Origin: a bacterium
GTDB lineage: Bacteria; Bacillota; Clostridia; Oscillospirales; Oscillospiraceae
Direction: 5' to 3'
NCBI GenBank assembly: GCA_963590455.1
Contig: CAVAPH010000001.1
Coordinates: 4,777-68,776 of the forward strand
DNA: 64,000 nt
Of this stretch, positions 7,802 through 51,268 are shown piece by piece. Position numbers and translations under genes: made by a program. Numbering within the stretch: position 1 is the first letter of the stretch; every line of letters starts with the position of its first letter. A model generated the notes under the pieces. That model had not been told where the DNA came from and did not search any database. It saw only the letters and a list, made by a program, of their open reading frames with translations.

Positions 7802-9882
7802 ATGAAAAAAGTAATTTTATACGTGATTATTGCTGCACTTGCTTTGTCAATGCTGGCTGCCTGCGGAAACTCAGGTGAGACACAGCAGAAGGCGCAGGGG
7901 GAAGTCGGCAGTATCAGTTCAACCGGCGAATGGATAGGCAGCGGCAAATGCTATAGGGCAGAAAACGTTGAAAGTCTGCCAAATGTAACTGATATGCTGT
8001 GGATTGATCAGAATATATATTCCGTGGCCACATATGGTCAGGGACAATATGCACTGGCCAAAAACGGCAGTATTATTTACACGTTTCAGGGAAGTGTATA
8101 CGGGATTGATTCAACAGAAGCCGGAGAAATTTGGACGATCGAAGAGATATATACCGACGGAGAAGGCGACTACATTGTCAGCTGCTTGTCTGATGAAGGA
8201 ACGGTAATAAAGCAGTACAGCTTGGGATCGGAATACAGCGGGGAGAGCTTCAGCCAAAAAATGCGCCGTGCGGCAACAGCCTGTATATCGAATCATCGGA
8301 CATGCGCACGCTTGTCTGCATTGATGCATTGACCGGCGAAGTGTGTTCAGTCTCAATGCCGTCGGGTAAAGCAAGCATGGCAAGAGGGGCAGACGGTCAG
8401 ATTTATGCTGCCGAACAATCGGCGGACGGCGTTAAAGTGTATCTCTTTGACCGGCAGGAACAGAGCTTCACTCTCAAATTCGAGACTCAAAACGGCAAAC
8501 TGCTCGATGGCAGCGGCGACTTTCTGCTGCTTAGTGCAAACGATGACGGCCTTTATTCAATTGGCAATGACGGAAAAACAACGCCGATAATTATATGGGA
8601 CGAATGCGGCATCAATTTGGGCGAAATATACCGGCTATTTATCGAAAGCAACGGTGAAATGCTTTGCCACAGCCTTTTTGGGCTGAAAAAACTTGTGCCT
8701 GCAGAACCGGCAGAGATAAATATAAAAGAAAAACTGGAGATAGCCGGAATAGGTGCGTCATATGAGCTTCAATTGAAGGCAGCACAGTTCAACAATGCCA
8801 GCGATAAATATTATGTCAAGATAGTTGATTACTCTGATGACGGAGTGTTTGATGATGATCAGGCACTGACCAGATTAAATACGGAAATTCTCAGCGGGCA
8901 TGTTCCTGATATGATTTGCTTTAAAAATATTTCGCCTTATCCGTATATAAGCAATGCGCTGCTTGTAAATCTTAACGAGCTGCTTGCAAATGACGCGGAC
9001 ATTCATCGCGAGGATATAGCTGTCGTAAATGCACTGGAGCTGTCGGGAAAAATGTATTATATAAGCGATGGCTTTAATCTGGAGACATATGTCGCAAGAT
9101 ATTCCGAATTCGGCGACCATTTTGGCTGGACGCTTGATGAATATTCGGATGCCGACGACAGAAACGGCTCGGACACGCAAACTCTCTACAACATGACAAA
9201 GGAAGTCTTTTTAGAAAATCTTGCGTGCAGGTATTTCAGCCGGGCAGTGGACTGGAGCAATATGAGCTGTGATTTCAACACTGAAGATTTTGCCGAAATT
9301 CTTGAGTTGAGCGCAAAAATATCCGAAACACCGGAAGACTCGGACAGCATGGTGTACGGCTACGGCCCCACAATGGTGGGAACGGGTTATTTAACAGCGG
9401 CTGCCTCATGGGTGAACAGTGTTTGGAAGTTCGCGTACGAGGAAAAAATGGCCGGCTGCAGATTGAGCTGCATCGGCTGGCCATCGAGTGACGGAAGCTG
9501 CGGATCTGATGTCTATTTAGATAATCCCCTGGGAATTGTCAGCTGCGGCAGCAACATATCCGGCTGTTGGGAGTTTATAAAATATCTTCTGCTGAATTTC
9601 AATGAAAATAGTGACTTGCTGCCTATGTATATGCCGACACTTGAACGCGCGGCCGCCTATGCGAGAAACGACAGTAGCCTTCCCGTGCAGTTTACTCAGG
9701 CAGATGAGGAACGTTTTTTCAATCTTTTATCAGAGGTCAATAATACTGCGCTTTATGACGATACACTGAAAAATATAATAATGGAGAACAGCTCCGCATT
9801 TTTGAACGGAGACCGTTCACTGGATGAGACAATAAAATTAATACAGTCAAAAGCAAGCCTGTATTTAGCTGAGCTTGGCTGA
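7802..9882 (+). pseudogene. Frameshifted paralog of the large solute-binding lipoprotein at 42787..45267
   Basis: Track ORFs 7802..8332 (lipobox LAACGNSG) and 8302..9882 form one gene broken at an A6 run (8256-8261). Adding one A gives ..ESFSQKNAPCGNSLYIESSDMRTLVCIDALTGEV.. and a 693-aa product. The C-terminal half aligns by eye with the 826-aa protein (TEILSGHVPDMICF vs TEILAGNTPDILDL). Confidence 0.7.
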
Positions 9883-42025: not shown

Positions 42026-42463
42026 ATGGAAAAACTGCTTATCAGCTCATGCCTTCTGGGCAACAACTGCAAATACAGCGGCGGCAATAACCGCCTGCCG
42101 GATGAGCTGCTCTCGGCGCTGAGGGCAAAATATACACTCATACCCGTCTGCCCGGAGACTGCCGGAAAGCTGCCCATTCCCCGTGAACCGAGCGAGAGAG
42201 TCGGCAAGCTTGTGCTCAGCCGCAGCGGCAGGGACGTCACCGCGGAATACACGGCGGGCGCGGATGCGGCGGAGTATCTCGTGAAAAGCCACGGAATTAA
42301 AATTGCGCTGATGAAGGCCAATTCACCGTCATGCGGCAGCGGCAGCATATACGACGGGAGCTTTTCAGGCACGCTTATACCGGGAGACGGTGTGACGACG
42401 CAGCGCCTTCGCAAATTAAACGTGAAGGTGTACTCCGAGAAGGAAATAGAAAAGCTGATTTAA
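42026..42463 (+). CDS. DUF523 family protein (TudS-like)
   Basis: Start moved to ATG 42026 (AGGAGG 9 nt upstream). SSCLLGNNCKYSGG and NSPSCGS Cys motifs are typical of DUF523. Confidence 0.7.
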   Translation: MEKLLISSCLLGNNCKYSGGNNRLPDELLSALRAKYTLIPVCPETAGKLPIPREPSERVGKLVLSRSGRDVTAEYTAGADAAEYLVKSHGIKIALMKANSPSCGSGSIYDGSFSGTLIPGDGVTTQRLRKLNVKVYSEKEIEKLI

Positions 42464-42497
42464 TCACGGCATGAATAAACTGTTAAATCATTTGGAA

Positions 42498-42525
42498 ACA
42501 GGCGTGCAAAAACGCCTGTTCTCTT
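42498..42525 (+). terminator. Hairpin after the DUF523 gene
   Basis: ACAGGCG-TGCAAAAA-CGCCTGT, then TTCTCTT. The T-run is weak. Confidence 0.45.
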
Positions 42526-42552
42526 GACATTACGGGGCGAAATCTATAATAT
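42524..42552 (+). promoter_or_regulatory. Sigma-70-type promoter of the large binding-lipoprotein gene
   Basis: TTGACA (42524-42529), 17 nt, TAATAT (42547-42552). This leaves a leader of about 230 nt. Confidence 0.65.
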
Positions 42553-42786
42553 GTTGTGGGCGCAAAATGCCTGTAACTTTTGTAAAACGCCTGCGTATAT
42601 ATTATTGCAGACGTGCGTTGCAGCATAAAATCCGTGTTAAGAATCGGAAAAGATTAAAATAATACAGAACTTTTTTCCGCAAATTGCGTCTGATAGCCTG
42701 TCCGCCGAAGTGCGGAGTATTGAAACACAACGAATTGCGTTATCTGACCGGCTCTGTCCGGACGGAGGAACAATTAGGAGGATAAA

Positions 42787-45267
42787 ATGAAAAGAAACCT
42801 TACCAAGCTCACGGCTCTTCTTTTAGTGCTCGTCATGGCGCTGTCCCTTTGCGCCTGCGGCAGCGGAAGCAGCTCGAAGAGCAGCACTTCAGAGGAGGAG
42901 ACTCCGACCAATGTCTATAACACCGAATTCACCACGATAGTCAGCGGCGTAAAGAATTCGCTCAACCCCGTGCTCTACTCCGGCAACGGCTTCTATGCCG
43001 TTACGTACGAGCTCGTTGAAGACGAGAGCGCGCCGACAGAAGAGAACACGGAAGAAAGCGCGAATGAAACTGCAGCTGAAAGCACATACGCAGTAGCTGA
43101 AACCTCAGATCCCCAGACCTACGCTTCGATGATCAGCTATGTTGACTTCTCAGGCACGGTAAGCGAGCTTGTAAAGTATGCACCCAAGACCGCCGAGAAC
43201 ACGGAGAACTATAAAGACTTCTACTCCGGCAGCAGCATATTCGGAATGGCAGAGACCTCCGACGGCAAGCTTGTCACCATTGAAAGCACGTATTCATCCT
43301 GGTATGAGGGACCGGACAACTTCACCTCTGACGACGCCGAGTATTATAATTACCAGAATTACAACAACGCCTATTATCTGCGCGTTCTCGACAGCGAAGG
43401 CAATGAGCTCAGCTGCGTGACCCTGGATGTCGATGAGAACGAAGGAATCTCCATCGGTCAGGCGCTTACCCTTGACGACAATGACAATGTTATCTTAGGT
43501 ATGGGCGATTCCGTATGCGTTATAGGCCTCGACGGACAGCAGGTCATGAAAATTAATGCGGCCGAAGAGAGCTCCGGCGACTACTTCTACATTGACAGTA
43601 TCATCAAGCTCAACGACGGCAGCATCGCCGTGACCACCTATGCCAACGGCGGCGAGGAGCTGTGGCTGCTTGACGAGAGCACCAAGGGCTTCGGCGACAA
43701 GTATACTCTGCCGTCCAGCGCCTACGGTATCATCTCCGGCGGCGGTAATTACCAGCTCTATTACACCAGCGGCACCAATTTCTACGGCTTTAATCTCGGA
43801 GACAGCGAGGCAACCCGCCTCTTCAACTGGATAAACTGCGATATCAACAACAGTGACGGCGGCCTTACGTACGTCCGTGATGACGGCAGCATAGTCACGG
43901 TTATAAACGACTACGACTCCGCCGAGGAGACCTATGAGGTCAGCCTCGCCACCGTCAGCCTTGTCCCGTATGACTCCGTTCCCCACAAAGAGGAGATCAC
44001 CCTTGCAACCCAGTACCTCAGCTGGACTGTAAGAGACCAGGTAATTTCCTTCAACCGCAAGAACGACCAGTACCGCATAGTCGTCAAGGATTATTCTCAG
44101 TACAACACCGACGAGGATTATTCCGCCGGCCTCACCAAGCTCACAACCGAGATTCTTGCCGGCAACACCCCGGATATTCTGGACCTCACCGGATTGCCCT
44201 ATACTCAGCTTGCGGCAAAGGGCCTGCTTGAGGACCTCTACCCCTATATGGACAGCGACAGTGAGTTTGGCCGCGAGGACTTCTTCCCCAACGTTCTTGC
44301 AGCGCTTGAGGTCAACGGCAGCCTGTACTCCACGGCTTCAAGCTTCTACCTCAACAGCGTAATCGGCGCGTCCTCCGTCGTCGGCGATGAGCCGGGCTGG
44401 ACCTATGACGAGTTTAATGCGGCACTTGCATCAATGCCCGAAGGCTGCGAGCCCTTTGATCGCTACACCACCCGCGACACTATTCTCCAGACCTGCCTTA
44501 ACCTCGACATGGATAAGTACGTCGACTGGACTACCGGCAAGTGCGACTTTAATAACGAGAGCTTCACCCAGCTCCTTGAGTTTGCCGCCCAGTTCCCGGA
44601 GACCTTTGACTGGGAGAACTATGACTACTCCAATGAGGACAACGCAACTACGCGCATTGCCCAGGGCAAGCAGATGCTCATGATGACCAGCATCTACTCC
44701 ATTACGGATATTATCTATGATGATCAGTACTTCGGCGGCAGCTCCACCTACATCGGCTACCCGACCTCTGACGGCAGCGTCGGCAATCTTATCACCCTTG
44801 CAGACTCCGGCTACGCAATGTGCTCAAAGAGCACCCATAAGGACGCAGTCTGGCAGTTCCTGAGAAACTTCTTCACCGAGAAGGGACAGAGCAGCGTGTA
44901 TGCTATCCCGACTAATATCAACGTCTATAATTCAAGACTCAAGGAGAGCATGACCGTCCAGTACGAGAAGGACGACAACGGACAGTACAAGCTCGACAAG
45001 GACGGCAACAAGATCCCTGTGACCCTCGGCAGCTACACCGGCTCCGACGGCAAGACAGTTAAGTTCTACTCCATCACACAGGAACAGGCGGATAAGCTCT
45101 ACCAGGCGCTCACCTCCGCCACCGCCCTCAACGACTACACGCAGAACAGCATCTTCACCATCGTAAAAGAGCAGTCCCAGGCCTACTTCGAGGGCCAGAA
45201 GACCGCAGAAGAGGTCGCAAAGCTCGTACAGAGCAAAGCCAATATCTACGTCAACGAACAGAGATAA
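42787..45267 (+). CDS. Large lipoprotein: N-terminal ~390-aa repeat-rich domain fused to an extracellular solute-binding (CUT1 SBP-like) domain
   Basis: Lipobox LSLCACGSG. The C-terminal half has SBP-like features and is followed by two CUT1 permease genes. The N-terminal half has recurrent ..DG(S/K).V.. strands suggestive of a beta-propeller-like fold. Confidence 0.75.
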   Translation: MKRNLTKLTALLLVLVMALSLCACGSGSSSKSSTSEEETPTNVYNTEFTTIVSGVKNSLNPVLYSGNGFYAVTYELVEDESAPTEENTEESANETAAESTYAVAETSDPQTYASMISYVDFSGTVSELVKYAPKTAENTENYKDFYSGSSIFGMAETSDGKLVTIESTYSSWYEGPDNFTSDDAEYYNYQNYNNAYYLRVLDSEGNELSCVTLDVDENEGISIGQALTLDDNDNVILGMGDSVCVIGLDGQQVMKINAAEESSGDYFYIDSIIKLNDGSIAVTTYANGGEELWLLDESTKGFGDKYTLPSSAYGIISGGGNYQLYYTSGTNFYGFNLGDSEATRLFNWINCDINNSDGGLTYVRDDGSIVTVINDYDSAEETYEVSLATVSLVPYDSVPHKEEITLATQYLSWTVRDQVISFNRKNDQYRIVVKDYSQYNTDEDYSAGLTKLTTEILAGNTPDILDLTGLPYTQLAAKGLLEDLYPYMDSDSEFGREDFFPNVLAALEVNGSLYSTASSFYLNSVIGASSVVGDEPGWTYDEFNAALASMPEGCEPFDRYTTRDTILQTCLNLDMDKYVDWTTGKCDFNNESFTQLLEFAAQFPETFDWENYDYSNEDNATTRIAQGKQMLMMTSIYSITDIIYDDQYFGGSSTYIGYPTSDGSVGNLITLADSGYAMCSKSTHKDAVWQFLRNFFTEKGQSSVYAIPTNINVYNSRLKESMTVQYEKDDNGQYKLDKDGNKIPVTLGSYTGSDGKTVKFYSITQEQADKLYQALTSATALNDYTQNSIFTIVKEQSQAYFEGQKTAEEVAKLVQSKANIYVNEQR

Positions 45268-45287
45268 ATCAAATAACCCAATCCCAA

Positions 45288-45318
45288 ACGGGGCAGCACA
45301 ACCTGCTGCCCCGTTTTT
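45288..45318 (+). terminator. Strong rho-independent terminator after the SBP gene
   Basis: 10-bp stem ACGGGGCAGC / GCTGCCCCGT followed by TTTTT. Confidence 0.85.
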
Positions 45319-45427
45319 AAAACCGCGCACGGTACCGAGCTTAAAAAGACTAATACCCATCCCCGCTTCGTCACATTCCGTCACTCAATTGTTTCCACAA
45401 TTTAATAGAACGTTAAACCCGTATATG

Positions 45428-45456
45428 TTGAAATAACGCTGTTTTTGATGTATTAT
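45428..45456 (+). promoter_or_regulatory. Sigma-70-type promoter of the permease/MFP operon
   Basis: TTGAAA (45428-45433), 17 nt, TATTAT (45451-45456). Confidence 0.5.
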
Positions 45457-45559
45457 AAACAAGATGGTGTATTATGCCATTATACGGAAAAACTGCGTTG
45501 CTGCCTTGCTTTTTGCTTGGCTGCACAAATCTGATTTTATTAAAAAAGCGTATTATTTA

Positions 45560-46447
45560 ATGAAAAGTCATAAGTTGAAATTAAACGAGAAGTCGAAGGA
45601 CTTCCTGCACAGTCTGTGCTTCCTCTCGCCGAGCCTTTTGGGCGTGTGCGTGTTCTTCATCGTGCCTTTCGGCGTGGTGGTGTACTACTCGCTGATTGAC
45701 GGCGTCGGTTCGAGAAACTTTGTCGGGCTTGAGAATTTTATAAAGCTTTTTCAAAACTCGGCCTTTCTCCTCGCCGCGAAGAATACGCTGATCTTCTCGG
45801 CATGGGCGGTGCCGCTGGCGGTCATACTCTCTATGATACTGGCGCTGCTGCTTGAGGCGCGTATTCCGCTCAAATCGCAGTTTCGCACCTTCTTCCTGAG
45901 CCCGATGATGGTGCCTGTCGCCTCCGTTGTGCTCATATGGCAGGTGCTCTTTAACTACAACGGCACGATAAACGAATTCTTGATGGTCTTCGGCGCGGAT
46001 AAGATCGACTGGCTGCAGTCGCAGCACAGCATTGCCGTCGTTCTGCTGCTGTTTTTGTGGAAAAACCTCGGCTACTTCATGATTCTCTTCATGGCGGGCC
46101 TTGCCAACATACCCAAGGAGCTTCTGGAGGTGGCGGACGTAGAGGGCGCGGGCGAGCTTTATAAGTTTTTTGCCATTAAGCTGCGTTATCTCTCGCCGAC
46201 GGTGCTCTTTGTCATGATCCTCTCGCTCATCAACTCCTTCAAGGTCTTCAGAGAGGTGTATCTGCTGACGGGCGACTACCCGTATGAAACGCTGTATATG
46301 CTGCAGCACTTCATGAACAACACCTTCAAGTCTCTCGATTATCAAAAGCTCTCTGCCGCGGCCGTCGTGATGGCGATTGTAATGGTCGTAATCATCGCGC
46401 TGCTGTTCAAGGCGGAGGACTGGTTCGGAAAGGACGTGGAGGGATGA
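45560..46447 (+). CDS. Carbohydrate ABC transporter permease (CUT1, MalF-like)
   Basis: 6 TM. EAA loop EVADVEGAGELYKFFAIKLRYLSP. The start is uncertain: ATG 45560 has no SD, and the in-frame ATG 45464 coincides with the predicted transcription start. Confidence 0.8.
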   Translation: MKSHKLKLNEKSKDFLHSLCFLSPSLLGVCVFFIVPFGVVVYYSLIDGVGSRNFVGLENFIKLFQNSAFLLAAKNTLIFSAWAVPLAVILSMILALLLEARIPLKSQFRTFFLSPMMVPVASVVLIWQVLFNYNGTINEFLMVFGADKIDWLQSQHSIAVVLLLFLWKNLGYFMILFMAGLANIPKELLEVADVEGAGELYKFFAIKLRYLSPTVLFVMILSLINSFKVFREVYLLTGDYPYETLYMLQHFMNNTFKSLDYQKLSAAAVVMAIVMVVIIALLFKAEDWFGKDVEG

Positions 46448-47319
46448 AGAAAAAGCGTTATTTCGGCCGTGCCGTGACATTTATACTCTGCCTGATCTTT
46501 GCGATCCTCTTCCTGCTGCCGACTGTGCTGACGATAACAAACTCCTTCATGTCGGAAGCGGAGATAAAGGCAAACTACGGCATGATTTTCTCAACGACCT
46601 CCGGCGGCTACGTCTCCAAGACGGTCAATCTCAAGTTTATCCCCGACAAGGTCACGCTCTCGCAGTACATTACCGGCCTTATCAAGACGCCGGAATATCT
46701 CCTTAAATTCTGGAACAGCATAATCCTTGTCGTGCCTATCGTCGTGCTTCAGGTGGCAATCGCCGCGGTCGCCGCGTATTCGTTCACACGCTGGCGCGGC
46801 AGAATAAGAAGCGGCATATTCTTCTTTTATGTCATTCTTATGCTCATGCCCTATCAGGTAACCCTCGTGCCGAACTACCTTGTCAGCGACTGGCTGGGCA
46901 TACTCAACACCCGCTGGGCGATAATACTGCCGGGCGTGTTCGCACCGTTCTCGGTTTTCTTGCTGACAAAATTCATGCGCCGCATACCCTACGCCCTCAT
47001 AGAGGCGGCGAAGGTGGACGGGGCAGGCGAGTGGGAGATTTTCACGAAGGTCTGCCTGCCGCAGTGCCGCTCGGCGCTGTACTCCATCGCAATATTGGTC
47101 TTCATCGACTACTGGAACATGGTCGAGCAGCCGCTTATCCTCCTTGATGATGCGGACAAGCAGCCGCTTTCGGTGTTCCTCTCGTCTATAAATTCCGGTG
47201 AGATCGGCCTTGCCTTTGCAATGGCCACAGTGTATATGATCCCCACACTGCTGTTGTTCCTCCACGGTGAGGAGTACCTTGTCGAGGGTATTGCAAACTC
47301 CGGCAGCGTCAAGGGATAA
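46444..47319 (+). CDS. Carbohydrate ABC transporter permease (CUT1, MalG-like)
   Basis: 6 TM. EAA loop EAAKVDGAGEWEIFTKVCLP. ATGA overlap with the preceding permease. Confidence 0.85.
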   Translation: MKKKRYFGRAVTFILCLIFAILFLLPTVLTITNSFMSEAEIKANYGMIFSTTSGGYVSKTVNLKFIPDKVTLSQYITGLIKTPEYLLKFWNSIILVVPIVVLQVAIAAVAAYSFTRWRGRIRSGIFFFYVILMLMPYQVTLVPNYLVSDWLGILNTRWAIILPGVFAPFSVFLLTKFMRRIPYALIEAAKVDGAGEWEIFTKVCLPQCRSALYSIAILVFIDYWNMVEQPLILLDDADKQPLSVFLSSINSGEIGLAFAMATVYMIPTLLLFLHGEEYLVEGIANSGSVKG

Positions 47320-47341
47320 GCGTCACAGCGAGGTAATTAAT

Positions 47342-49084
47342 ATGGAAACAAAACCAAACAGAGCCTGGGTAAAGGATGCGGCGATAGTATTCCTTGTGAT
47401 ACTTCTTGTGCTCACATTCTTCTCCAACACTATTATGAACCACTCTCTGCCGGAGGTCGCCACACAGATGGTCTCCAACGGCACAATAACCGCCAAAGTG
47501 CGCGGCACCGGCACGGTTACGGCAGTCGGCACGCACAAGGTCAAGGCGACGGATTCCATCACCATCGGCAGGGTCCTCGTCAAGTCCGGGCAGGAGGTCA
47601 ACGCCGGTGACGTGCTCTTTGTCCTCGGCGCGGCGGACAGCTCAAAGCTTGAGGAGGCATACGCCACTCTTGAGGATCTGCAGGCCAGCTACGCCCAGCA
47701 GGCCGCCAGCTCTCCCATACTCAGCCAGTTTGTTGAAGAACAGAATGCGGTTGAACAGGCATATCAGGACTACGAGGATGCAGAGGATGCATACAATACG
47801 GCTAAAGCAGAGGAAACAAGCGCTGCATCATCAGCTGAAGTTAAGAAGCTGCTGCAGCAGAAGTCCGATACGGAGACTGCTTTGACGACGGCAACGCAGG
47901 AGCTCGACAGAGAGAAACTTGAACTGAGCTCAATAGAAGCTGCGCTTGCAGGTGCAAAAAGCACGTATACTACACTCTACACACAGTACTTGCAGCAGAA
48001 CAATGACGCGGCAGCTCCGGCTGAAAATCCGGGTGATGCTGCTAATAACGAATCTGGTGATGGAGCAAAGCAAGATGAAAGCAAGTCTCAAACTGTCAAA
48101 ACCGTCACTAAGGAAGAGGTAGACCAGGCAGAGCAAAAAGTTAAAGAGCTTGAGCAGCAGAAAAGCGATAAAGAAGCTGAATTGGTAGACGGAGTTACCA
48201 GAGTACAGTATATCAGCAACAAGCAGTATGAGGTAGACACACTCACGCAGAAGCTCACAGCGATAAACACACAGCTTACGGCTCTCGGTGGAAATGCGTC
48301 GAATGTTGATGCTTTAGAGAGAGCCATGAATACAGCATATAATAATTATCTGGCTAAACAGGAAGCTCTGAACAACAAGCTCGCAAGTCAGAACCAGTCT
48401 GTTGCGTCTTCTTCTGCCAGCCTTACTGCCATATCCAACAAGATCAAGCGCCAGCAGGAGAAGATAAAGAAGCTCTCCGGCGAGGGTGACTCCAACACCA
48501 TCACGGCGAACGTCTCCGGTACCGTCACCGAGGTCAACTGCACGGCGGGAGACAGCATGATCAAGGACGATATCCTCTGCGCCATCGAGGTGCCGGATCA
48601 GGGCTACACCGTCAGCTTCTCCGTCACGAACGATCAGGCAAAGCGTCTGCACGTCGGCGACACGGCGACAATCAGCAACTATTACTGGGGCAACGAGATA
48701 GTCGCAACCCTCTCAAGCATACAGACTGATAAGAAAAAGCCCATGACCAACAAGACGCTGACCTTTAACCTTGAGGGCGACGTCACCTCCGGCTCGGAGC
48801 TTACTATCTCCGTCGGCCAGAAGAGCGCAAACTATGATACCATCATACCCAACAGCGCCATCCGCTCCGACTCCAACGGCAGCTTCGTCCTTGCGGTCAC
48901 GGCGAAGAACTCACCTCTCGGCAACCGCTATATTGCAAAGCGCGTCAAGATAGAGGTGCTCGCGCAGGATGACAACAATGCCGCAGTCACCGCGGATCTC
49001 TCCAACGGCGATTACGTCATCACCACATCCTCCGCACCTATTTCCAGCGGCGACATGGTTCGCCTTGCGGACAGTGAGAAGTAA
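47342..49084 (+). CDS. HlyD/membrane-fusion-protein family periplasmic adaptor with a very long coiled coil
   Basis: Start moved to ATG 47342. N-terminal TM anchor. Lipoyl-like hairpin halves (TITAKVRGTGTV..GQEVNAGDVLFVL and ITANVSGTVTEVNCTAGDSMIKDDILCAI) are separated by about 300 aa of heptad-rich sequence. C-terminal beta-barrel-like region. Confidence 0.75.
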   Translation: METKPNRAWVKDAAIVFLVILLVLTFFSNTIMNHSLPEVATQMVSNGTITAKVRGTGTVTAVGTHKVKATDSITIGRVLVKSGQEVNAGDVLFVLGAADSSKLEEAYATLEDLQASYAQQAASSPILSQFVEEQNAVEQAYQDYEDAEDAYNTAKAEETSAASSAEVKKLLQQKSDTETALTTATQELDREKLELSSIEAALAGAKSTYTTLYTQYLQQNNDAAAPAENPGDAANNESGDGAKQDESKSQTVKTVTKEEVDQAEQKVKELEQQKSDKEAELVDGVTRVQYISNKQYEVDTLTQKLTAINTQLTALGGNASNVDALERAMNTAYNNYLAKQEALNNKLASQNQSVASSSASLTAISNKIKRQQEKIKKLSGEGDSNTITANVSGTVTEVNCTAGDSMIKDDILCAIEVPDQGYTVSFSVTNDQAKRLHVGDTATISNYYWGNEIVATLSSIQTDKKKPMTNKTLTFNLEGDVTSGSELTISVGQKSANYDTIIPNSAIRSDSNGSFVLAVTAKNSPLGNRYIAKRVKIEVLAQDDNNAAVTADLSNGDYVITTSSAPISSGDMVRLADSEK

Positions 49085-49141
49085 ATAGAATTATGACTCG
49101 GGAGCCACCGTAATTCGCGGTGGCTCCGACAGAAAAGAAGT

Positions 49142-50539
49142 ATGAAGAAGATAGTCCGTAAACTCGGAATCAAAAAGATAATATTATACTCCGTTGAGCT
49201 TCTTATGGTGCTTGTCGCAATAGGCAGCTTTATCGGCATTCACGCACTCTCCGAGCTGCTGCCAAGTCAGCTTGCGGCGGAGCGCTGGCAGGGGACGAGC
49301 GATAAAAAATACGCCCAGGTCAGCTGCTTCCTCACGCTTGACGGAAAGGTCAGCAAAAACCAGATCGGCAGCTTCCGCGAGGAGATGGCGAAAAAGCTCA
49401 AGGAGGCGGCACTGACCATAGACAATACGGACGTGCTCACGTCGGATGCGTGGAGCTGCGTCAACAAGGTCAGCGTGCAGAGCTCTCTCGGCAGCGGCAC
49501 GGTGCAGGCCACGGCAGTCGGCGGAAATTATTTCGACTTCCACCCGATAACACTGCTCAGCGGCAACTATATCACCGACTCCGACCTGATGCAGGACCGC
49601 GCTCTGCTCGACGAGGACACGGCGTGGCTGCTCTTCGGCTCGACGGATATTCAGGGGCTGACATTTAAGATAAACGGCGCTACCTTCACCGTCGCCGGCG
49701 TTATAGAGCGCGAGCAGGATTTTGCCTCAAAGCTCGCCTATAAGGACGGCATGGGCATATTTATCTCATATGACGCGTGGGAGGATCTTGTCAACGGCAC
49801 GGGCATAGCTGAAAACGTCGTCACTGCCGAATCAAGCGACACGTCGTCAAGCTCAAGCTCCGGCACGTCTTCAAGCTCCACCGGCAGCCTCGGCGGCATA
49901 CAGTGCTATGAGGTCGTTATGGCGGAGGCTGTCACCGGCTTTGCAAAGAACGTCGTAAAGGACAAGTTCCCGATAGGTCAGGGCGAGATCGTCTGCAACT
50001 CCACGCGCTACACATACTCGAATCTCTGGAGCCTGCTCAAGAGCTCCGGCACGCGCTCTATAATATCCCACGGCGTAATGTACCCGTACTGGGAGAACGC
50101 CGCCCGTGTGGTGGAGGACAGAGCGGTGCTGCTGCTCGCCGTGGCTATTCTCTCGCTCATTCTCCCCGGCGTCACCGGTCTGGTGCATATTATAAAATAC
50201 GCGATTATCGGCAAACGCAAGCTCGCCGATGAGCTTATCCCCCGCTGGAAGGACAGAGCCGAGGAGGCTATCCGTTCGCGTGAGCGCAAACAGTGGCTCA
50301 GACACCATGTTGTCAGAAGGCGCCGCGGCTCAAACTACGGCGATGAGGACGAGATCGGCATGTCCGCGCCCGCCGAGCCCGCAAGTATTCCGGATAACAC
50401 GCCGGATAATACGCCCGATGAGAGCGATGAGAGCAATACGGACGAGCATGAGAGCGAGAGCGAAGCCGAGGCAGAGAATAAAAATAATAAAAAATCCGAT
50501 GAATCCTTCGACTCGCTTTTCGACGATGACGATGATTAA
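49142..50539 (+). CDS. MacB-periplasmic-core-domain protein lacking the FtsX permease domain (half-MacB), with an acidic disordered tail
   Basis: TM1, then a MacB_PCD-like region (ATAVGGNYFDFHPITLLSGNYITDSDL..ALLDEDTAWLLFG..TFKINGATFTVAGVIE), a Ser-rich linker, one more TM, then RRRR and a D/E-rich tail ending FDSLFDDDDD. I see no TM3/TM4. Confidence 0.65.
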   Translation: MKKIVRKLGIKKIILYSVELLMVLVAIGSFIGIHALSELLPSQLAAERWQGTSDKKYAQVSCFLTLDGKVSKNQIGSFREEMAKKLKEAALTIDNTDVLTSDAWSCVNKVSVQSSLGSGTVQATAVGGNYFDFHPITLLSGNYITDSDLMQDRALLDEDTAWLLFGSTDIQGLTFKINGATFTVAGVIEREQDFASKLAYKDGMGIFISYDAWEDLVNGTGIAENVVTAESSDTSSSSSSGTSSSSTGSLGGIQCYEVVMAEAVTGFAKNVVKDKFPIGQGEIVCNSTRYTYSNLWSLLKSSGTRSIISHGVMYPYWENAARVVEDRAVLLLAVAILSLILPGVTGLVHIIKYAIIGKRKLADELIPRWKDRAEEAIRSRERKQWLRHHVVRRRRGSNYGDEDEIGMSAPAEPASIPDNTPDNTPDESDESNTDEHESESEAEAENKNNKKSDESFDSLFDDDDD

Positions 50540-50590
50540 AAATGATCCGGAGCACTTGAGTGCTCCGGATTTTATAATAATTATTATAAA

Positions 50591-51268
50591 TTATATCTGG
50601 TGTATGAGATTTGCCTTTGCGCGGGGCTTCGGATATGCGATGAGATACGCAACGATGCACAGCGGGAGGGACGCGACCACGTCTATGACAGAGTGCTGCT
50701 TCATGAACACCGTGGAGATGCTTATCAGTATGCAGCACGCCACGTTGACAATGCGCCAGCCTGTGCTTGAGAATCGCGGCGTATACCACAGCGCGTACAT
50801 AGCTGCAAACGAGCCGATCACGTGCAGCGAGGGGCAGACGTTCGTGTCCGTGTCGAAGGTATAGAATAACGCTATGAACTGCGTGAGTATGTTGTCGCGC
50901 TCAAAGCTTGTAGGCCGCAGGTGCTGGCAGTTCGGGAAGACGAGGTATACAAGCAGCGTCGCCGAATAGCTGATGATTATAAACCACATCATCTTTCTGA
51001 AGTTTGCCACATCGCAGAGAAAGACGTATACAACCGCGCCCGTCAGGTAGACAAACCAGAACAGATACGGGATAAGAAACCACTCGCAAAACGGAATCAT
51101 ATCATCAAGCGCGCAGTGAACAACGAGATAGGCGGCCGGATGATAAACCCGTTCGACGAAGAAAAACATAAGCCCGTATATCGGCCAGTAGAGCAGCAGC
51201 TTGAAATGACTGTACTCCGGTGTTCCGAGCTTGTCAAATGAAAAATTACGCAGATCGGTCTTGTTCAT
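50591..51268 (-). CDS. PAP2-superfamily membrane protein (PAP2_3 / phosphatidyl-transfer type)
   Basis: 225 aa, 6 TM. CPSLHV and KQHSVIDV resemble the PAP2 C2/C3 motifs. Overlaps the upstream glycosyltransferase gene by 23 nt. Confidence 0.6.
   Translation of the reverse strand: MNKTDLRNFSFDKLGTPEYSHFKLLLYWPIYGLMFFFVERVYHPAAYLVVHCALDDMIPFCEWFLIPYLFWFVYLTGAVVYVFLCDVANFRKMMWFIIISYSATLLVYLVFPNCQHLRPTSFERDNILTQFIALFYTFDTDTNVCPSLHVIGSFAAMYALWYTPRFSSTGWRIVNVACCILISISTVFMKQHSVIDVVASLPLCIVAYLIAYPKPRAKANLIHQI

What the first reader, a model, noticed from the sequence alone, without database searches (positions are those of the whole stretch)
47342..50539. Membrane-fusion protein plus half-MacB (PCD without FtsX or ATPase), co-transcribed with CUT1 importer permeases
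Downstream of two MalF/MalG-type importer permeases, and without an intervening terminator, lie two further genes.

- The first is a 581-aa HlyD-type adaptor with an unusually long coiled coil of about 300 aa.
- The second is a 465-aa protein with TM1, a clear MacB periplasmic-core-domain-like region and one further TM. It lacks the rest of the FtsX permease domain. It ends in an Arg cluster and a long acidic tail (..FDSLFDDDDD).

Canonical Gram-positive MFP systems (YknX-YknYZ type) need a MacB-type permease with four TMs and an ABC ATPase. Neither is present here, and the next gene is convergent. A 10-bp intercistronic hairpin (49096-49122) separates the two genes.

Either this is an uncharacterised extracytoplasmic scaffold that works with the importer and its giant binding lipoprotein, or it borrows an ATPase/permease encoded elsewhere.
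Basis: partly seen in the sequence, partly recalled or inferred. Interest (0 to 1): 0.6.

Follow-up and report, generated by a model that had tools for sequence, protein, structure and literature searches.

The report
Sugar-type ABC importer with exporter-type accessories
A gut Oscillospiraceae bacterium encodes, in one operon with the two membrane subunits of a sugar-type ABC importer, a very long "membrane-fusion" adaptor and a two-helix protein that keeps only the outer domain of MacB-type exporters. The same four-gene block recurs in hundreds of Clostridia, so it looks like an undescribed accessory apparatus of an uptake system, though its function is only inferred.

Summary
Gene 47342-49084 encodes a 580-aa MacA/YknX-like adaptor with one N-terminal TM helix and a ~280-aa helical insert. 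Gene 49142-50539 encodes a 465-aa protein built as TM1, MacB periplasmic core domain (PCD), TM2. It has no FtsX domain, and no ATPase gene is nearby. Both genes sit in a promoter-to-terminator unit with the CUT1 permease genes. The binding-protein gene upstream has its own terminator.

- **Conservation.** In about 140 loci from many Clostridia families and Desulfotomaculia, the block permease-permease-adaptor-PCD is kept, twice in permuted order. Binding-protein genes (1-4 copies) lie on either side.
- **ATPase.** In seven loci a MalK-type ATPase gene directly follows the PCD gene. No locus has a MacB-type ATPase gene in that position.
- **Origin.** Distant versions carry a divergent 4-6-TM MacB-like permease. 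On the permease tree the 2-TM form is one derived clade.
- **Contacts.** The adaptor's TM helix is 87% conserved and its coiled coil about 36%.

My best reading is that these are accessory subunits of a type I ABC importer, forming a MacAB-like tower that projects into or through the wall. Function and mechanism are inferred, not shown. I found no published description. This scan noted the same module on other DNA (e1-4309780, e1-3950241).

The parts
42787..45267 (+). Giant CUT1 solute-binding lipoprotein (826 aa). It has a lipobox (LSLCAC), an unassigned N-terminal ~400 aa, and an SBP_bac_1 domain at aa 444-701.
   Evidence: The best solved relatives of the C-terminal half bind oligosaccharides (CbpC 7x0o, Lmo0181, NagB1). 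Homologues flank the module in most loci, on either side, in 1-4 copies.
45286..45316 (+). Terminator-like hairpin after the binding-protein gene (13-bp stem, then UUUUAAAA).
   Evidence: -24 kcal/mol, z -5.6.
45428..45456 (+). Promoter-like site (TTGAAA-17-TATTAT) in front of the permease genes.
   Evidence: This is a consensus match only.
45464..46447 (+). PermF, a MalF/UgpA-type permease (BPD_transp_1). The start is either 45464 or 45560. EAA loop: LEVADVEGAG.
46444..47319 (+). PermG, a MalG/UgpE-type permease (BPD_transp_1). EAA loop: IEAAKVDGAG. It overlaps PermF by 4 nt. It is the most conserved component of the module.
47342..49084 (+). Membrane-fusion (periplasmic adaptor) protein, MacA/YknX-like, 580 aa.
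47375..47443 (+). Adaptor N-terminal TM anchor (aa 12-34). It is 87% identical across homologues, and the cytoplasmic stub aa 1-11 is 89% identical.
47639..48478 (+). Adaptor alpha-helical insert: arm 1 aa 100-223, low-complexity tip aa 224-256, arm 2 aa 257-379. At 1.5 A per residue each arm would be about 18 nm long.
   Evidence: One search gives the confident helices. One search shows the arms are 35-38% conserved. One search shows inserts of 119-558 aa (median 295) in 99 module adaptors. The length in nm is an inference.
48479..49081 (+). Adaptor C-terminal lipoyl half, beta-barrel and membrane-proximal region (aa 380-580), 83% conserved.
   Evidence: HlyD_3 at aa 386-478; YknX_C and BSH_CzcB precomputed in homologues. 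The AF2 model is poor in this region.
49101..49127 (+). Intercistronic hairpin (11-bp stem, 5-nt loop, no U tract). It occurs once in the genome and is missing in relatives, where the two genes abut.
49142..50539 (+). PCD-only two-TM membrane protein (465 aa), a reduced MacB-type permease.
49178..49252 (+). TM1 of the PCD protein (aa 13-37). It is poorly conserved (33%).
49253..50122 (+). Extracytoplasmic domain (aa 38-327) with MacB Porter and Sabre subdomains. It carries a variable Ser/Gly-rich loop (aa 222-250) and highly conserved stalk motifs next to the membrane (AERWQG; YPYWENAAR, 81%).
   Evidence: (TM-score 0.60-0.64 to the YknZ and MacB ectodomains).
50123..50329 (+). TM2 (aa 328-357) continuing into a conserved basic cytoplasmic helix (aa 358-396; P367, E375 and R378 invariant).
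50330..50536 (+). Disordered Arg-cluster and acidic tail. It is specific to this lineage.
50544..50571 (.). Two-way intrinsic terminator that closes the operon and the convergent gene.
   Evidence: -21.4 kcal/mol, z -7.3.

Best explanation
The adaptor and the PCD-only protein are dedicated accessory subunits of a CUT1-type (type I) ABC importer. The importer consists of PermF, PermG, one or more binding lipoproteins and a MalK/MsmK-type ATPase, which in this genome is encoded elsewhere or not assembled.

**Proposed working (inferred).**
1. The two-TM protein keeps exactly the parts of a MacB-type permease that form the dimeric stalk and the outer platform: TM1, the Porter/Sabre domain and TM2.
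2. By analogy with MacA6-MacB2 and Spr0693-0695, a ring of adaptor subunits sits on this platform. Its alpha-hairpins form a helical tube or strut about 18 nm long that projects into or through the thick wall.
3. The adaptor's strongly conserved TM helix and cytoplasmic stub tie this tower to the conserved PermFG/ATPase core.
4. The tower would hold open or organise a path between the cell surface and the membrane-anchored binding protein and permease, for a bulky, probably oligosaccharide-like substrate.

**Shown:** domain identities, operon layout, strict gene linkage, one-clade origin of the 2-TM form, and a MalK-type ATPase in some operons.

**Inferred:** physical complex, stoichiometry, tube formation, direction of transport and substrate.
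For: 1. **Linkage.** I examined about 140 loci.
   - The adaptor gene is the immediate upstream neighbour of the PCD gene wherever upstream DNA exists. PermF and PermG precede it.
   - The linkage survives rearrangement: H-P-S-F-G in L098 and H-P-F-G in L194.
   - It holds where the flanks are wholly different (L005).
   - It holds across Oscillospirales, Butyrivibrio, Ruminiclostridium, Lutispora, Peptostreptococcaceae and Desulforamulus.
2. **Search starting from PermG, not from the PCD protein.** Every PermG at least 43% identical to the window's lies next to an adaptor, and next to a PCD gene wherever the contig extends far enough. Only four of the weakest matches (35-40% identity) lack a complete pair.
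3. **ATPase.** A MalK-type ATPase gene (ABC_tran + OB_MalK + TOBE_2; UgpC model above its cut-off) follows or overlaps the PCD gene in L034, L039, L093 and L189-L192. A MacB-type ATPase never takes this position. One unrelated canonical MacB pair lies upstream in L166.
4. **Importer hallmarks are intact.** These are a lipobox binding protein, EAA loops in both permeases, and oligosaccharide-binding relatives in the PDB.
5. **The PCD fold is MacB-like.** This is supported by Pfam, the PDB profile search, and AF2 with Foldseek.
6. **Evolution.** Distant modules carry a 4-6-TM protein that aligns with a canonical MacB permease through TM3 (hhalign probability 98.9). On the PermG tree the 2-TM state needs only one change (support 99/99).
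7. **Conservation pattern.** The adaptor TM is 87% conserved and its cytoplasmic stub 89%, against 35-38% for the coiled coil. The PCD stalk next to the membrane is 81% conserved, against 33% for its TM1. In MacAB, the adaptor's membrane-proximal domain contacts the PCD, and its TM and N-terminus stimulate the ATPase (PMC5985334).
Against:
- No multimer model could be made.
- The AF2 model of the adaptor is poor outside the helices, and its Foldseek search gave nothing at E<=0.001.
- All known adaptors and PCD proteins serve export or mechanotransmission, never uptake (PMC5985334).
- No glycoside hydrolase or catabolic gene recurs next to the module.
- The module also occurs in Desulforamulus ruminis, which I know from memory only as a non-saccharolytic sulfate reducer. 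An oligosaccharide substrate is therefore uncertain.
- No MalK-type ATPase is found anywhere in this 92.7%-complete assembly.
- It is geometrically unclear how a binding protein and PermFG would be served by a MacA-like tube.
Confidence: 0.6

Rival explanations
1. The whole module, PermFG included, does outward or mechanical work rather than nutrient uptake. The PermFG/MalK motor would replace the lost FtsX/NBD motor of a MacB-type machine. Through the PCD platform and the long coiled coil it would drive an extracytoplasmic task: expelling or extracting an envelope component, controlling a wall enzyme as FtsEX-EnvC/PcsB does, or sensing the envelope.
For: - Every characterised PCD protein (MacB, LolCE, FtsX, BceB, HrtB) works by mechanotransmission or export (PMC5985334).
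- The PCD protein keeps a conserved cytoplasmic helix after TM2, at the place where MacB has its major coupling helix.
- No catabolic genes recur nearby.
- A two-component system flanks the module in about 35 of 134 loci.
- Cell-wall genes lie next to it in some lineages: NlpC/P60 in L003 and LysM-GH18 in Ruminiclostridium.
- The module occurs in Desulforamulus, which I recall as non-saccharolytic.
Against: - Binding lipoproteins, EAA-loop permeases and a MalK-type ATPase are the defining set of type I importers. To my knowledge, none is known to export.
- Both NBD grooves would be occupied by the EAA loops of PermF and PermG, leaving no canonical site for a MacB-type coupling helix.
- The 2-TM form has lost TM3, TM4 and the loop between TM2 and TM3.
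Confidence: 0.17
2. The adaptor and PCD protein form a separate unit that borrows a MacB/FtsX-type permease and ATPase encoded elsewhere, for example the canonical system on contig C18. On this view it is co-located with the importer genes only for shared regulation.
For: - The genome has one canonical adaptor / MacB-ATPase / MacB-permease operon (C18:6267-9820) and four further FtsX-domain proteins.
- Adaptors of Gram-positive bacteria are normally found with macB homologues (PMC5985334).
Against: - The C18 system has its own adaptor.
- In about 140 loci the pair is never adjacent to a MacB-type ATPase or an FtsX permease. One chance neighbour occurs in L166. The pair always sits with one particular PermFG subfamily, even after rearrangement.
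- That PermFG subfamily is essentially never found without the pair.
- The MalK-type ATPase is the only ATPase ever found inside the operon.
Confidence: 0.08
3. The two genes are evolutionary leftovers of a dismantled exporter. They persist next to the importer genes without a function of their own.
For: - The PCD protein is a truncated derivative of a 4-TM MacB-like permease.
- Its tail and Ser/Gly-rich loop are unconstrained.
- A few of the most distant loci keep only 120-180-aa adaptor fragments (L195, L197, L200).
Against: - The 2-TM family has at least 338 clusters at 50% identity with E<=1e-30.
- It occurs in at least 405 species-level genomes.
- It has about 60 invariant positions, intact reading frames and strongly conserved stalk motifs.
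- The adaptor's globular parts are 78-89% conserved.
- The module appears to have moved between families as a unit.
Confidence: 0.03

Closest known systems
MacAB(-TolC) and its Gram-positive versions: Spr0693-0694-0695 of Streptococcus pneumoniae and YknXYZ of Bacillus
   Same: - An adaptor with an N-terminal TM helix, split lipoyl motif, alpha-hairpin, and beta-barrel/membrane-proximal region. MacA is the best solved relative by sequence.
- A membrane partner with a Porter/Sabre periplasmic core domain between TM1 and TM2. Foldseek finds MacB, Spr0695 and the YknZ ectodomain.
- The genes are adjacent and in the order adaptor then PCD protein.
   Different: - There is no FtsX domain, no TM3/TM4, no coupling-helix loop and no MacB-type ATPase.
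- The operon partners are importer permeases, a binding protein and, in some genomes, a MalK-type ATPase.
- The hairpin arms are about 123 residues here, and the insert median is 295 aa. The helical barrel traced in Spr0693 is 56 A high (PMC5768738).
CUT1 (MalFGK2-MalE / UgpAEC-UgpB / MsmEFGK-type) type I ABC importers
   Same: A binding lipoprotein of the SBP_bac_1 family, two BPD_transp_1 permeases with EAA loops, and a MalK/UgpC-type ATPase in related operons.
   Different: - No described CUT1 system includes a membrane-fusion protein or a MacB-like subunit; six literature searches found none.
- The binding protein often carries an extra ~400-aa N-terminal domain and is often duplicated.
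- No regulator or glycoside hydrolase is consistently linked.
FtsEX with its coiled-coil partners (EnvC, PcsB, CwlO)
   Same: A PCD-like ectodomain between TM1 and TM2 is paired with a long extracytoplasmic coiled-coil protein. EnvC and PcsB appear as weak coiled-coil matches.
   Different: The partner here is a true adaptor with lipoyl and beta-barrel domains, not a hydrolase activator. There is no FtsE-type ATPase and no FtsX TM domain.

Membership tests
Membrane-fusion / periplasmic adaptor proteins (HlyD-MacA-YknX) | A single N-terminal TM anchor, or a lipid anchor. | tested here: met
   One hydrophobic segment at aa 6-36. AF2 gives a helix at aa 8-35.
Membrane-fusion / periplasmic adaptor proteins (HlyD-MacA-YknX) | A lipoyl domain split by an alpha-helical hairpin. 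| tested here: met
   Biotin_lipoyl_2 at aa 77-95 and Biotin_lipoyl at aa 384-415, both above their cut-offs. Confident helices of equal length at 100-223 and 257-379.
Membrane-fusion / periplasmic adaptor proteins (HlyD-MacA-YknX) | Beta-barrel and membrane-proximal domains. | tested here: inconclusive
   HlyD_3 scores 32.6 bits against a cut-off of 22.2 at aa 386-478. TIGR01730 scores 78 bits, below its cut-off of 94.9. YknX_C and BSH_CzcB are precomputed in homologues. The AF2 model has low confidence there, and Foldseek found nothing at E<=0.001.
Membrane-fusion / periplasmic adaptor proteins (HlyD-MacA-YknX) | Works with an exporter (ABC, RND or MFS) encoded alongside it. | tested here: not met
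   The operon partners are importer-type permeases. No exporter gene lies in the operon, here or in about 140 related loci.
Membrane-fusion / periplasmic adaptor proteins (HlyD-MacA-YknX) | Hexameric tube assembly. | not testable with these tools
   No multimer prediction was available.
MacB/FtsX (type VII ABC) permeases | A periplasmic core domain (Porter + Sabre) between TM1 and TM2. | tested here: met
   PF12704 scores 39 bits against a cut-off of 27. The AF2 model has beta-alpha-beta / Sabre / beta-alpha-beta topology. Foldseek gives probability 1.0 to MacB, Spr0695, YknZ and LolC/E.
MacB/FtsX (type VII ABC) permeases | Four TM helices with an FtsX domain (TM2-TM4). | tested here: not met
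   Only two hydrophobic segments. No PF02687 hit at E<=1. hhalign against a canonical MacB permease aligns only aa 126-217. The own-genome FtsX search does not hit this gene.
MacB/FtsX (type VII ABC) permeases | A major coupling helix between TM2 and TM3 that engages a dedicated MacB/LolD/FtsE-type ATPase. | tested here: not met
   There is no TM3. No such ATPase is adjacent, here or in relatives. A conserved helix follows TM2, but its partner is unknown.
CUT1 type I ABC importers (the operon as a whole) | An extracytoplasmic solute-binding protein. | tested here: met
   SBP_bac_1 is above its cut-off and a lipobox is present.
CUT1 type I ABC importers (the operon as a whole) | Two BPD_transp_1 permeases with EAA coupling loops. 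| tested here: met
   PF00528 scores 59 and 54 bits. UgpA/UgpE/MalF/MalG-like by NCBIfam. The EAA motifs can be read directly.
CUT1 type I ABC importers (the operon as a whole) | A MalK/MsmK-type ATPase. | tested here: inconclusive
   None is present in the window or in the 92.7%-complete assembly. One is present inside the operon in seven related loci.

The most novel reading that the evidence does not exclude
This would be the first uptake-direction 'tripartite-like' ABC machine. A MacA-like adaptor ring on a stripped-down MacB platform would form an envelope-spanning tube (hairpin arms about 18 nm) physically coupled to a type I importer. The tube would lead a bulky or polymeric substrate from the cell surface to the binding protein and permease, or would recapture an envelope-derived sugar, as LpqY-SugABC does for trehalose. 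Membrane-fusion proteins would then not be restricted to export.
Probability: 0.3. Interest if true: 0.85.

Novelty: new variant of a known kind. Interest (0 to 1): 0.72.

Why it matters
- Membrane-fusion adaptors and MacB-type periplasmic domains are textbook parts of exporters. Their role in bacteria without an outer membrane is still debated.
- Here they are strictly and anciently wedded to a binding-protein-dependent importer, in hundreds of gut, rumen and environmental Clostridia.
- If they are real subunits, ABC importers can carry an extracytoplasmic superstructure. That bears on how thick-walled anaerobes take up large substrates and on what Gram-positive adaptors are for.
- Current annotation ("efflux RND transporter periplasmic adaptor", "multidrug resistance efflux pump", "ABC transporter permease") would be misleading for resistance-gene surveys.
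- Cultured carriers make the question testable: Butyrivibrio sp. INlla18, Ruminiclostridium herbifermentans, Lutispora thermophila and Desulforamulus ruminis (Desru_0037, with neighbouring genes not individually looked up).

Tried and rejected
- **Adaptor structure.** The AF2 model was confident only in the helices (pLDDT 60, pTM 0.31). Its Foldseek search gave no hit at E<=0.001; EmrA and Spr0693 were among the top five with weak scores. I do not count this as evidence.
- **RNA families.** Rfam found nothing in 42300-50700. The intercistronic hairpin is not a repeated element.
- **Defence systems.** PADLOC gave only coiled-coil noise.
- **Shared ATPase in this genome.**
  - The four best MalK-family matches all sit in their own polyamine- or iron-type operons.
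  - No OB_MalK domain exists in the assembly.
  - The gene may lie in the unassembled ~7%, because other CUT1 permease pairs in this genome would need it too.
- **Flanking genes.** Clustering the flanks of 134 loci gave no recurrent catabolic enzyme. Several top clusters were antisense ORF artefacts.
- **Two-component systems.** These do recur. In Desulforamulus the kinase is VanS-like and sits with a probable D,D-carboxypeptidase gene (read from its SxxK motif; not run through Pfam), separated from the module by oppositely oriented genes. I rejected it as part of the module.
- **Possible fusion.** The 1089-aa PCD-binding-protein ORF (P0232) keeps an internal lipoprotein signal peptide. It may be two genes read as one, so I do not count it as a Rosetta-stone fusion.
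- **Literature.** Six searches found no description of the combination.

Full report
**What is there.**

The region holds five co-oriented genes:
- a lipoprotein of the SBP_bac_1 family (42787-45267, 826 aa);
- two BPD_transp_1 permeases of the UgpA/MalF and UgpE/MalG kind (45464 or 45560-46447; 46444-47319);
- a 580-aa HlyD/MacA-like protein (47342-49084);
- a 465-aa protein whose only Pfam match is the MacB periplasmic core domain (49142-50539).

The adaptor has one N-terminal hydrophobic segment. The PCD protein has exactly two, at aa 8-41 and 321-357. No FtsX domain is found at E<=1. No ATPase gene lies nearby, and the next gene is convergent.

**Transcription signals.**
- A terminator-like hairpin follows the binding-protein gene (45286-45316). 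A promoter-like site follows it (45428-45456).
- The four remaining genes are separated by -4, 22 and 57 nt and are closed by a strong two-way terminator (50544-50571).
It lies at 49101-49127 (-23.2 kcal/mol, no U tract) and occurs only once in the genome.

**The two proteins.**

*PCD protein.*
- An alignment of 23 homologues (A1) shows about 60 invariant positions. They are concentrated in the ectodomain and in the stalk next to the membrane (AERWQG after TM1, YPYWENAAR before TM2).
- The alignment also shows a variable Ser/Gly loop, a conserved basic helix after TM2, and an unconserved tail.
- The AF2 model (pLDDT 73) has TM1, then beta-alpha-beta / Sabre-like / beta-alpha-beta, then one long helix that contains TM2.
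- Foldseek returns MacB, Spr0695, the YknZ ectodomain (TM-score 0.64), LolC/E and HrtB.

*Adaptor.*
- Lipoyl half-motifs lie at aa 77-95 and 384-415. Confident helices at 100-223 and 257-379 flank a low-complexity tip. MacA is the best solved relative by sequence.
- With about 123 residues per arm, the hairpin would be about 18 nm long. This is an inference from 1.5 A per residue.
- The helical barrel traced in Spr0693 is 56 A high, and the apex of that whole assembly lies 154 A above the membrane (PMC5768738).
- Across 99 module adaptors the insert ranges from 119 to 558 aa, with a median of 295.

**Comparative genomics.**

*Size of the family.*
- It has 910 clusters at 50% identity (338 at E<=1e-30).
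- Relatives occur in at least 405 species-level genomes. The 80 best are all uncultured gut or rumen Oscillospiraceae, including Candidatus Limivicinus.
- It is found in 15 of 301 sampled genomes of the order and 22 of 399 of the class.

*Gene order.* I examined about 140 loci.
- Wherever upstream sequence exists, the adaptor gene directly precedes the PCD gene, and PermF-PermG precede the adaptor.
- Two loci have permuted orders that still keep all four genes together: L098 (H-P-S-F-G) and L194 (H-P-F-G).
- In one locus (L127) my screen missed PermF.
- Binding-protein genes lie upstream, downstream or both, in one to four copies of 436 to about 900 aa. In L045-L047 they are translationally coupled to the PCD gene.
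- The flanks differ completely between lineages.

*Search from PermG.* Starting from PermG avoids defining the set by the feature being counted.
- 42 of 399 class genomes have a PermG match at E<=1e-50.
- Every match at least 43% identical to the window's PermG lies next to an adaptor, and next to a PCD-type gene wherever the contig extends far enough.
- Only four of the weakest matches (35-40% identity: L195, L197, L198, L200) lack a full pair. Three of them keep a 120-180-aa adaptor fragment.

**The ATPase.**
- In L034, L039, L093 (Lutispora thermophila), L189, L190, L191 and L192 (two Desulforamulus species), an ATPase gene follows or overlaps the PCD gene.
- It has ABC_tran, OB_MalK and TOBE_2 domains and scores above the UgpC cut-off. 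It is therefore the importer's MalK/MsmK-type motor.
- A MacB-type ATPase never takes this position.
- In the window's own assembly (92.7% complete) no OB_MalK domain is found at all.
- The best MalK-family genes there belong to other operons. Several other CUT1 permease pairs exist in the genome.
- The ATPase gene is therefore probably unassembled or shared. This remains open.
- The genome has one canonical adaptor / MacB-ATPase / MacB-permease operon on contig C18, complete in itself.

**Origin of the half-MacB.**
- In more distant modules the gene after the adaptor encodes a 350-485-aa protein with TM1, a PCD and three to five further hydrophobic segments. Pfam recognises only the PCD.
- These modules occur in Ruminiclostridium, Lutispora, Paramaledivibacter, a Peptostreptococcaceae isolate, Desulforamulus and others.
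- A profile of these proteins aligns with the genome's canonical MacB permease from TM1 through TM3 (hhalign probability 98.9). It aligns with the 2-TM family across the PCD (probability 97.9).
- On a maximum-likelihood tree of PermG, rooted with a paralogue on a very long branch, the 45 modules with a 2-TM protein form one side of a branch with 99/99 support, nested among the multi-TM ones. One change of state suffices.
- The 2-TM protein is thus a derived truncation that keeps TM1, the PCD and TM2. In MacB these are the helices of the dimeric four-helix stalk (PMC5985334).
- The tree also mixes taxonomic families. Butyrivibrio, f70 and a family from another class fall among Oscillospirales, which suggests the module moves horizontally as a unit.

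**Interpretation.**
- Strict linkage that survives rearrangement and transfer argues for one functional unit. So do a permease subfamily found almost only with the pair, and the importer's ATPase sitting inside some operons.
- That unit is a type I importer with two extra subunits derived from a MacAB-like system.
- The adaptor's TM helix and cytoplasmic stub are 87-89% conserved, while the PCD protein's TM1 is 33% conserved. The adaptor therefore probably contacts something highly conserved in or at the membrane, most plausibly PermFG or the ATPase.
- In MacAB, the adaptor's TM and N-terminus stimulate the ATPase, and its membrane-proximal domain sits on the PCD (PMC5985334).
- I therefore propose a MacA-like ring on a PCD platform, coupled to PermFG, projecting an 18-nm helical tube or strut into the wall. 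The complex, the stoichiometry, the tube, the direction of transport and the substrate are all inferred.
- The binding protein's solved relatives bind oligosaccharides.
- Two points keep an outward or mechanical role alive as the main rival. No catabolic genes recur nearby. The module also occurs in Desulforamulus, which I recall as non-saccharolytic.
- Borrowing a MacB motor, and genetic decay, are both poorly supported.

**Novelty.**
- Six full-text searches and two reviews of MacB-type systems gave no description of an adaptor or PCD protein attached to an importer.
- Public annotations call these proteins efflux adaptors, multidrug pumps or ABC permeases.
- Earlier notes of this scan describe the same module on other DNA (e1-4309780, e1-3950241). 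I reached the same reading independently.

Noticed in passing
window 45286-45316 and 45428-45456: The giant binding-protein gene has its own terminator-like hairpin. A promoter-like site follows, in front of the permease genes. The binding protein is therefore probably expressed separately, and likely more strongly, than the four-gene operon.
   Followed up: partly
own genome contig C83:4095-6200, and window about 8302-9873: Two paralogues of the giant binding protein. The one on C83 is 41% identical over 715 aa and has no module permeases next to it. A weak one (25% identical) lies about 34 kb upstream in the window.
   Followed up: partly
own genome contig C18:6267-11895: A canonical Gram-positive MacAB-like operon: a 556-aa adaptor, a 222-aa ATPase and a 400-aa PCD+FtsX permease, followed by a 715-aa membrane-anchored protein of unknown kind.
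   Followed up: partly
whole assembly G000: No OB_MalK domain, and so no MalK/MsmK-type ATPase, is detectable in the 92.7%-complete assembly. Several CUT1 permease pairs are present (C13, C16, C79, C81, C97, C99).
   Followed up: partly
L128, L141, L148, L150, L153, L162, L164, L169, L171, L172, L174, L178 and others; also L081, L096, L166, L177: An OmpR-type response regulator and a HAMP-HisKA kinase lie next to the module in about 35 of 134 loci, usually divergent from the binding-protein gene. Ruminiclostridium herbifermentans has a HisKA_3/GerE pair plus a 407-aa unknown protein instead (L107).
   Followed up: partly
L192:44-2700 (Desulforamulus ruminis) and L191: A kinase above the curated VanS cut-off (409 bits against 400), with its regulator and a probable serine D,D-carboxypeptidase gene (SxxK motif; not run through Pfam), lies 2.3 kb upstream of the module. 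Oppositely oriented genes separate it from the module, so it is probably an unrelated van-like unit.
   Followed up: partly
P0232 (1089 aa, from the representatives search): One open reading frame joins a 2-TM PCD protein to a giant binding protein and keeps an internal lipoprotein signal peptide with a lipobox. It is either a real fusion that would be cut by signal peptidase II, or two genes read as one.
   Followed up: no
PermG tree: Module permeases from Butyrivibrio (Lachnospiraceae), family f70 and a family of another class nest inside the Oscillospirales sequences. This suggests the whole module transfers horizontally among gut and rumen anaerobes.
   Followed up: partly
L122, L123, L142, L159, L161: These five loci have two adaptor-like ORFs in tandem before the PCD gene. 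One of each pair has a short insert (119-137 aa).
   Followed up: no
L107:15378-16655 and L108:12075-13355: In Ruminiclostridium a LysM-LysM-GH18 protein, resembling spore-cortex lytic enzymes (the resemblance is from memory), lies just downstream of the module. In L003 an SH3/NlpC-P60 wall hydrolase gene lies directly upstream of the binding-protein gene.
   Followed up: no
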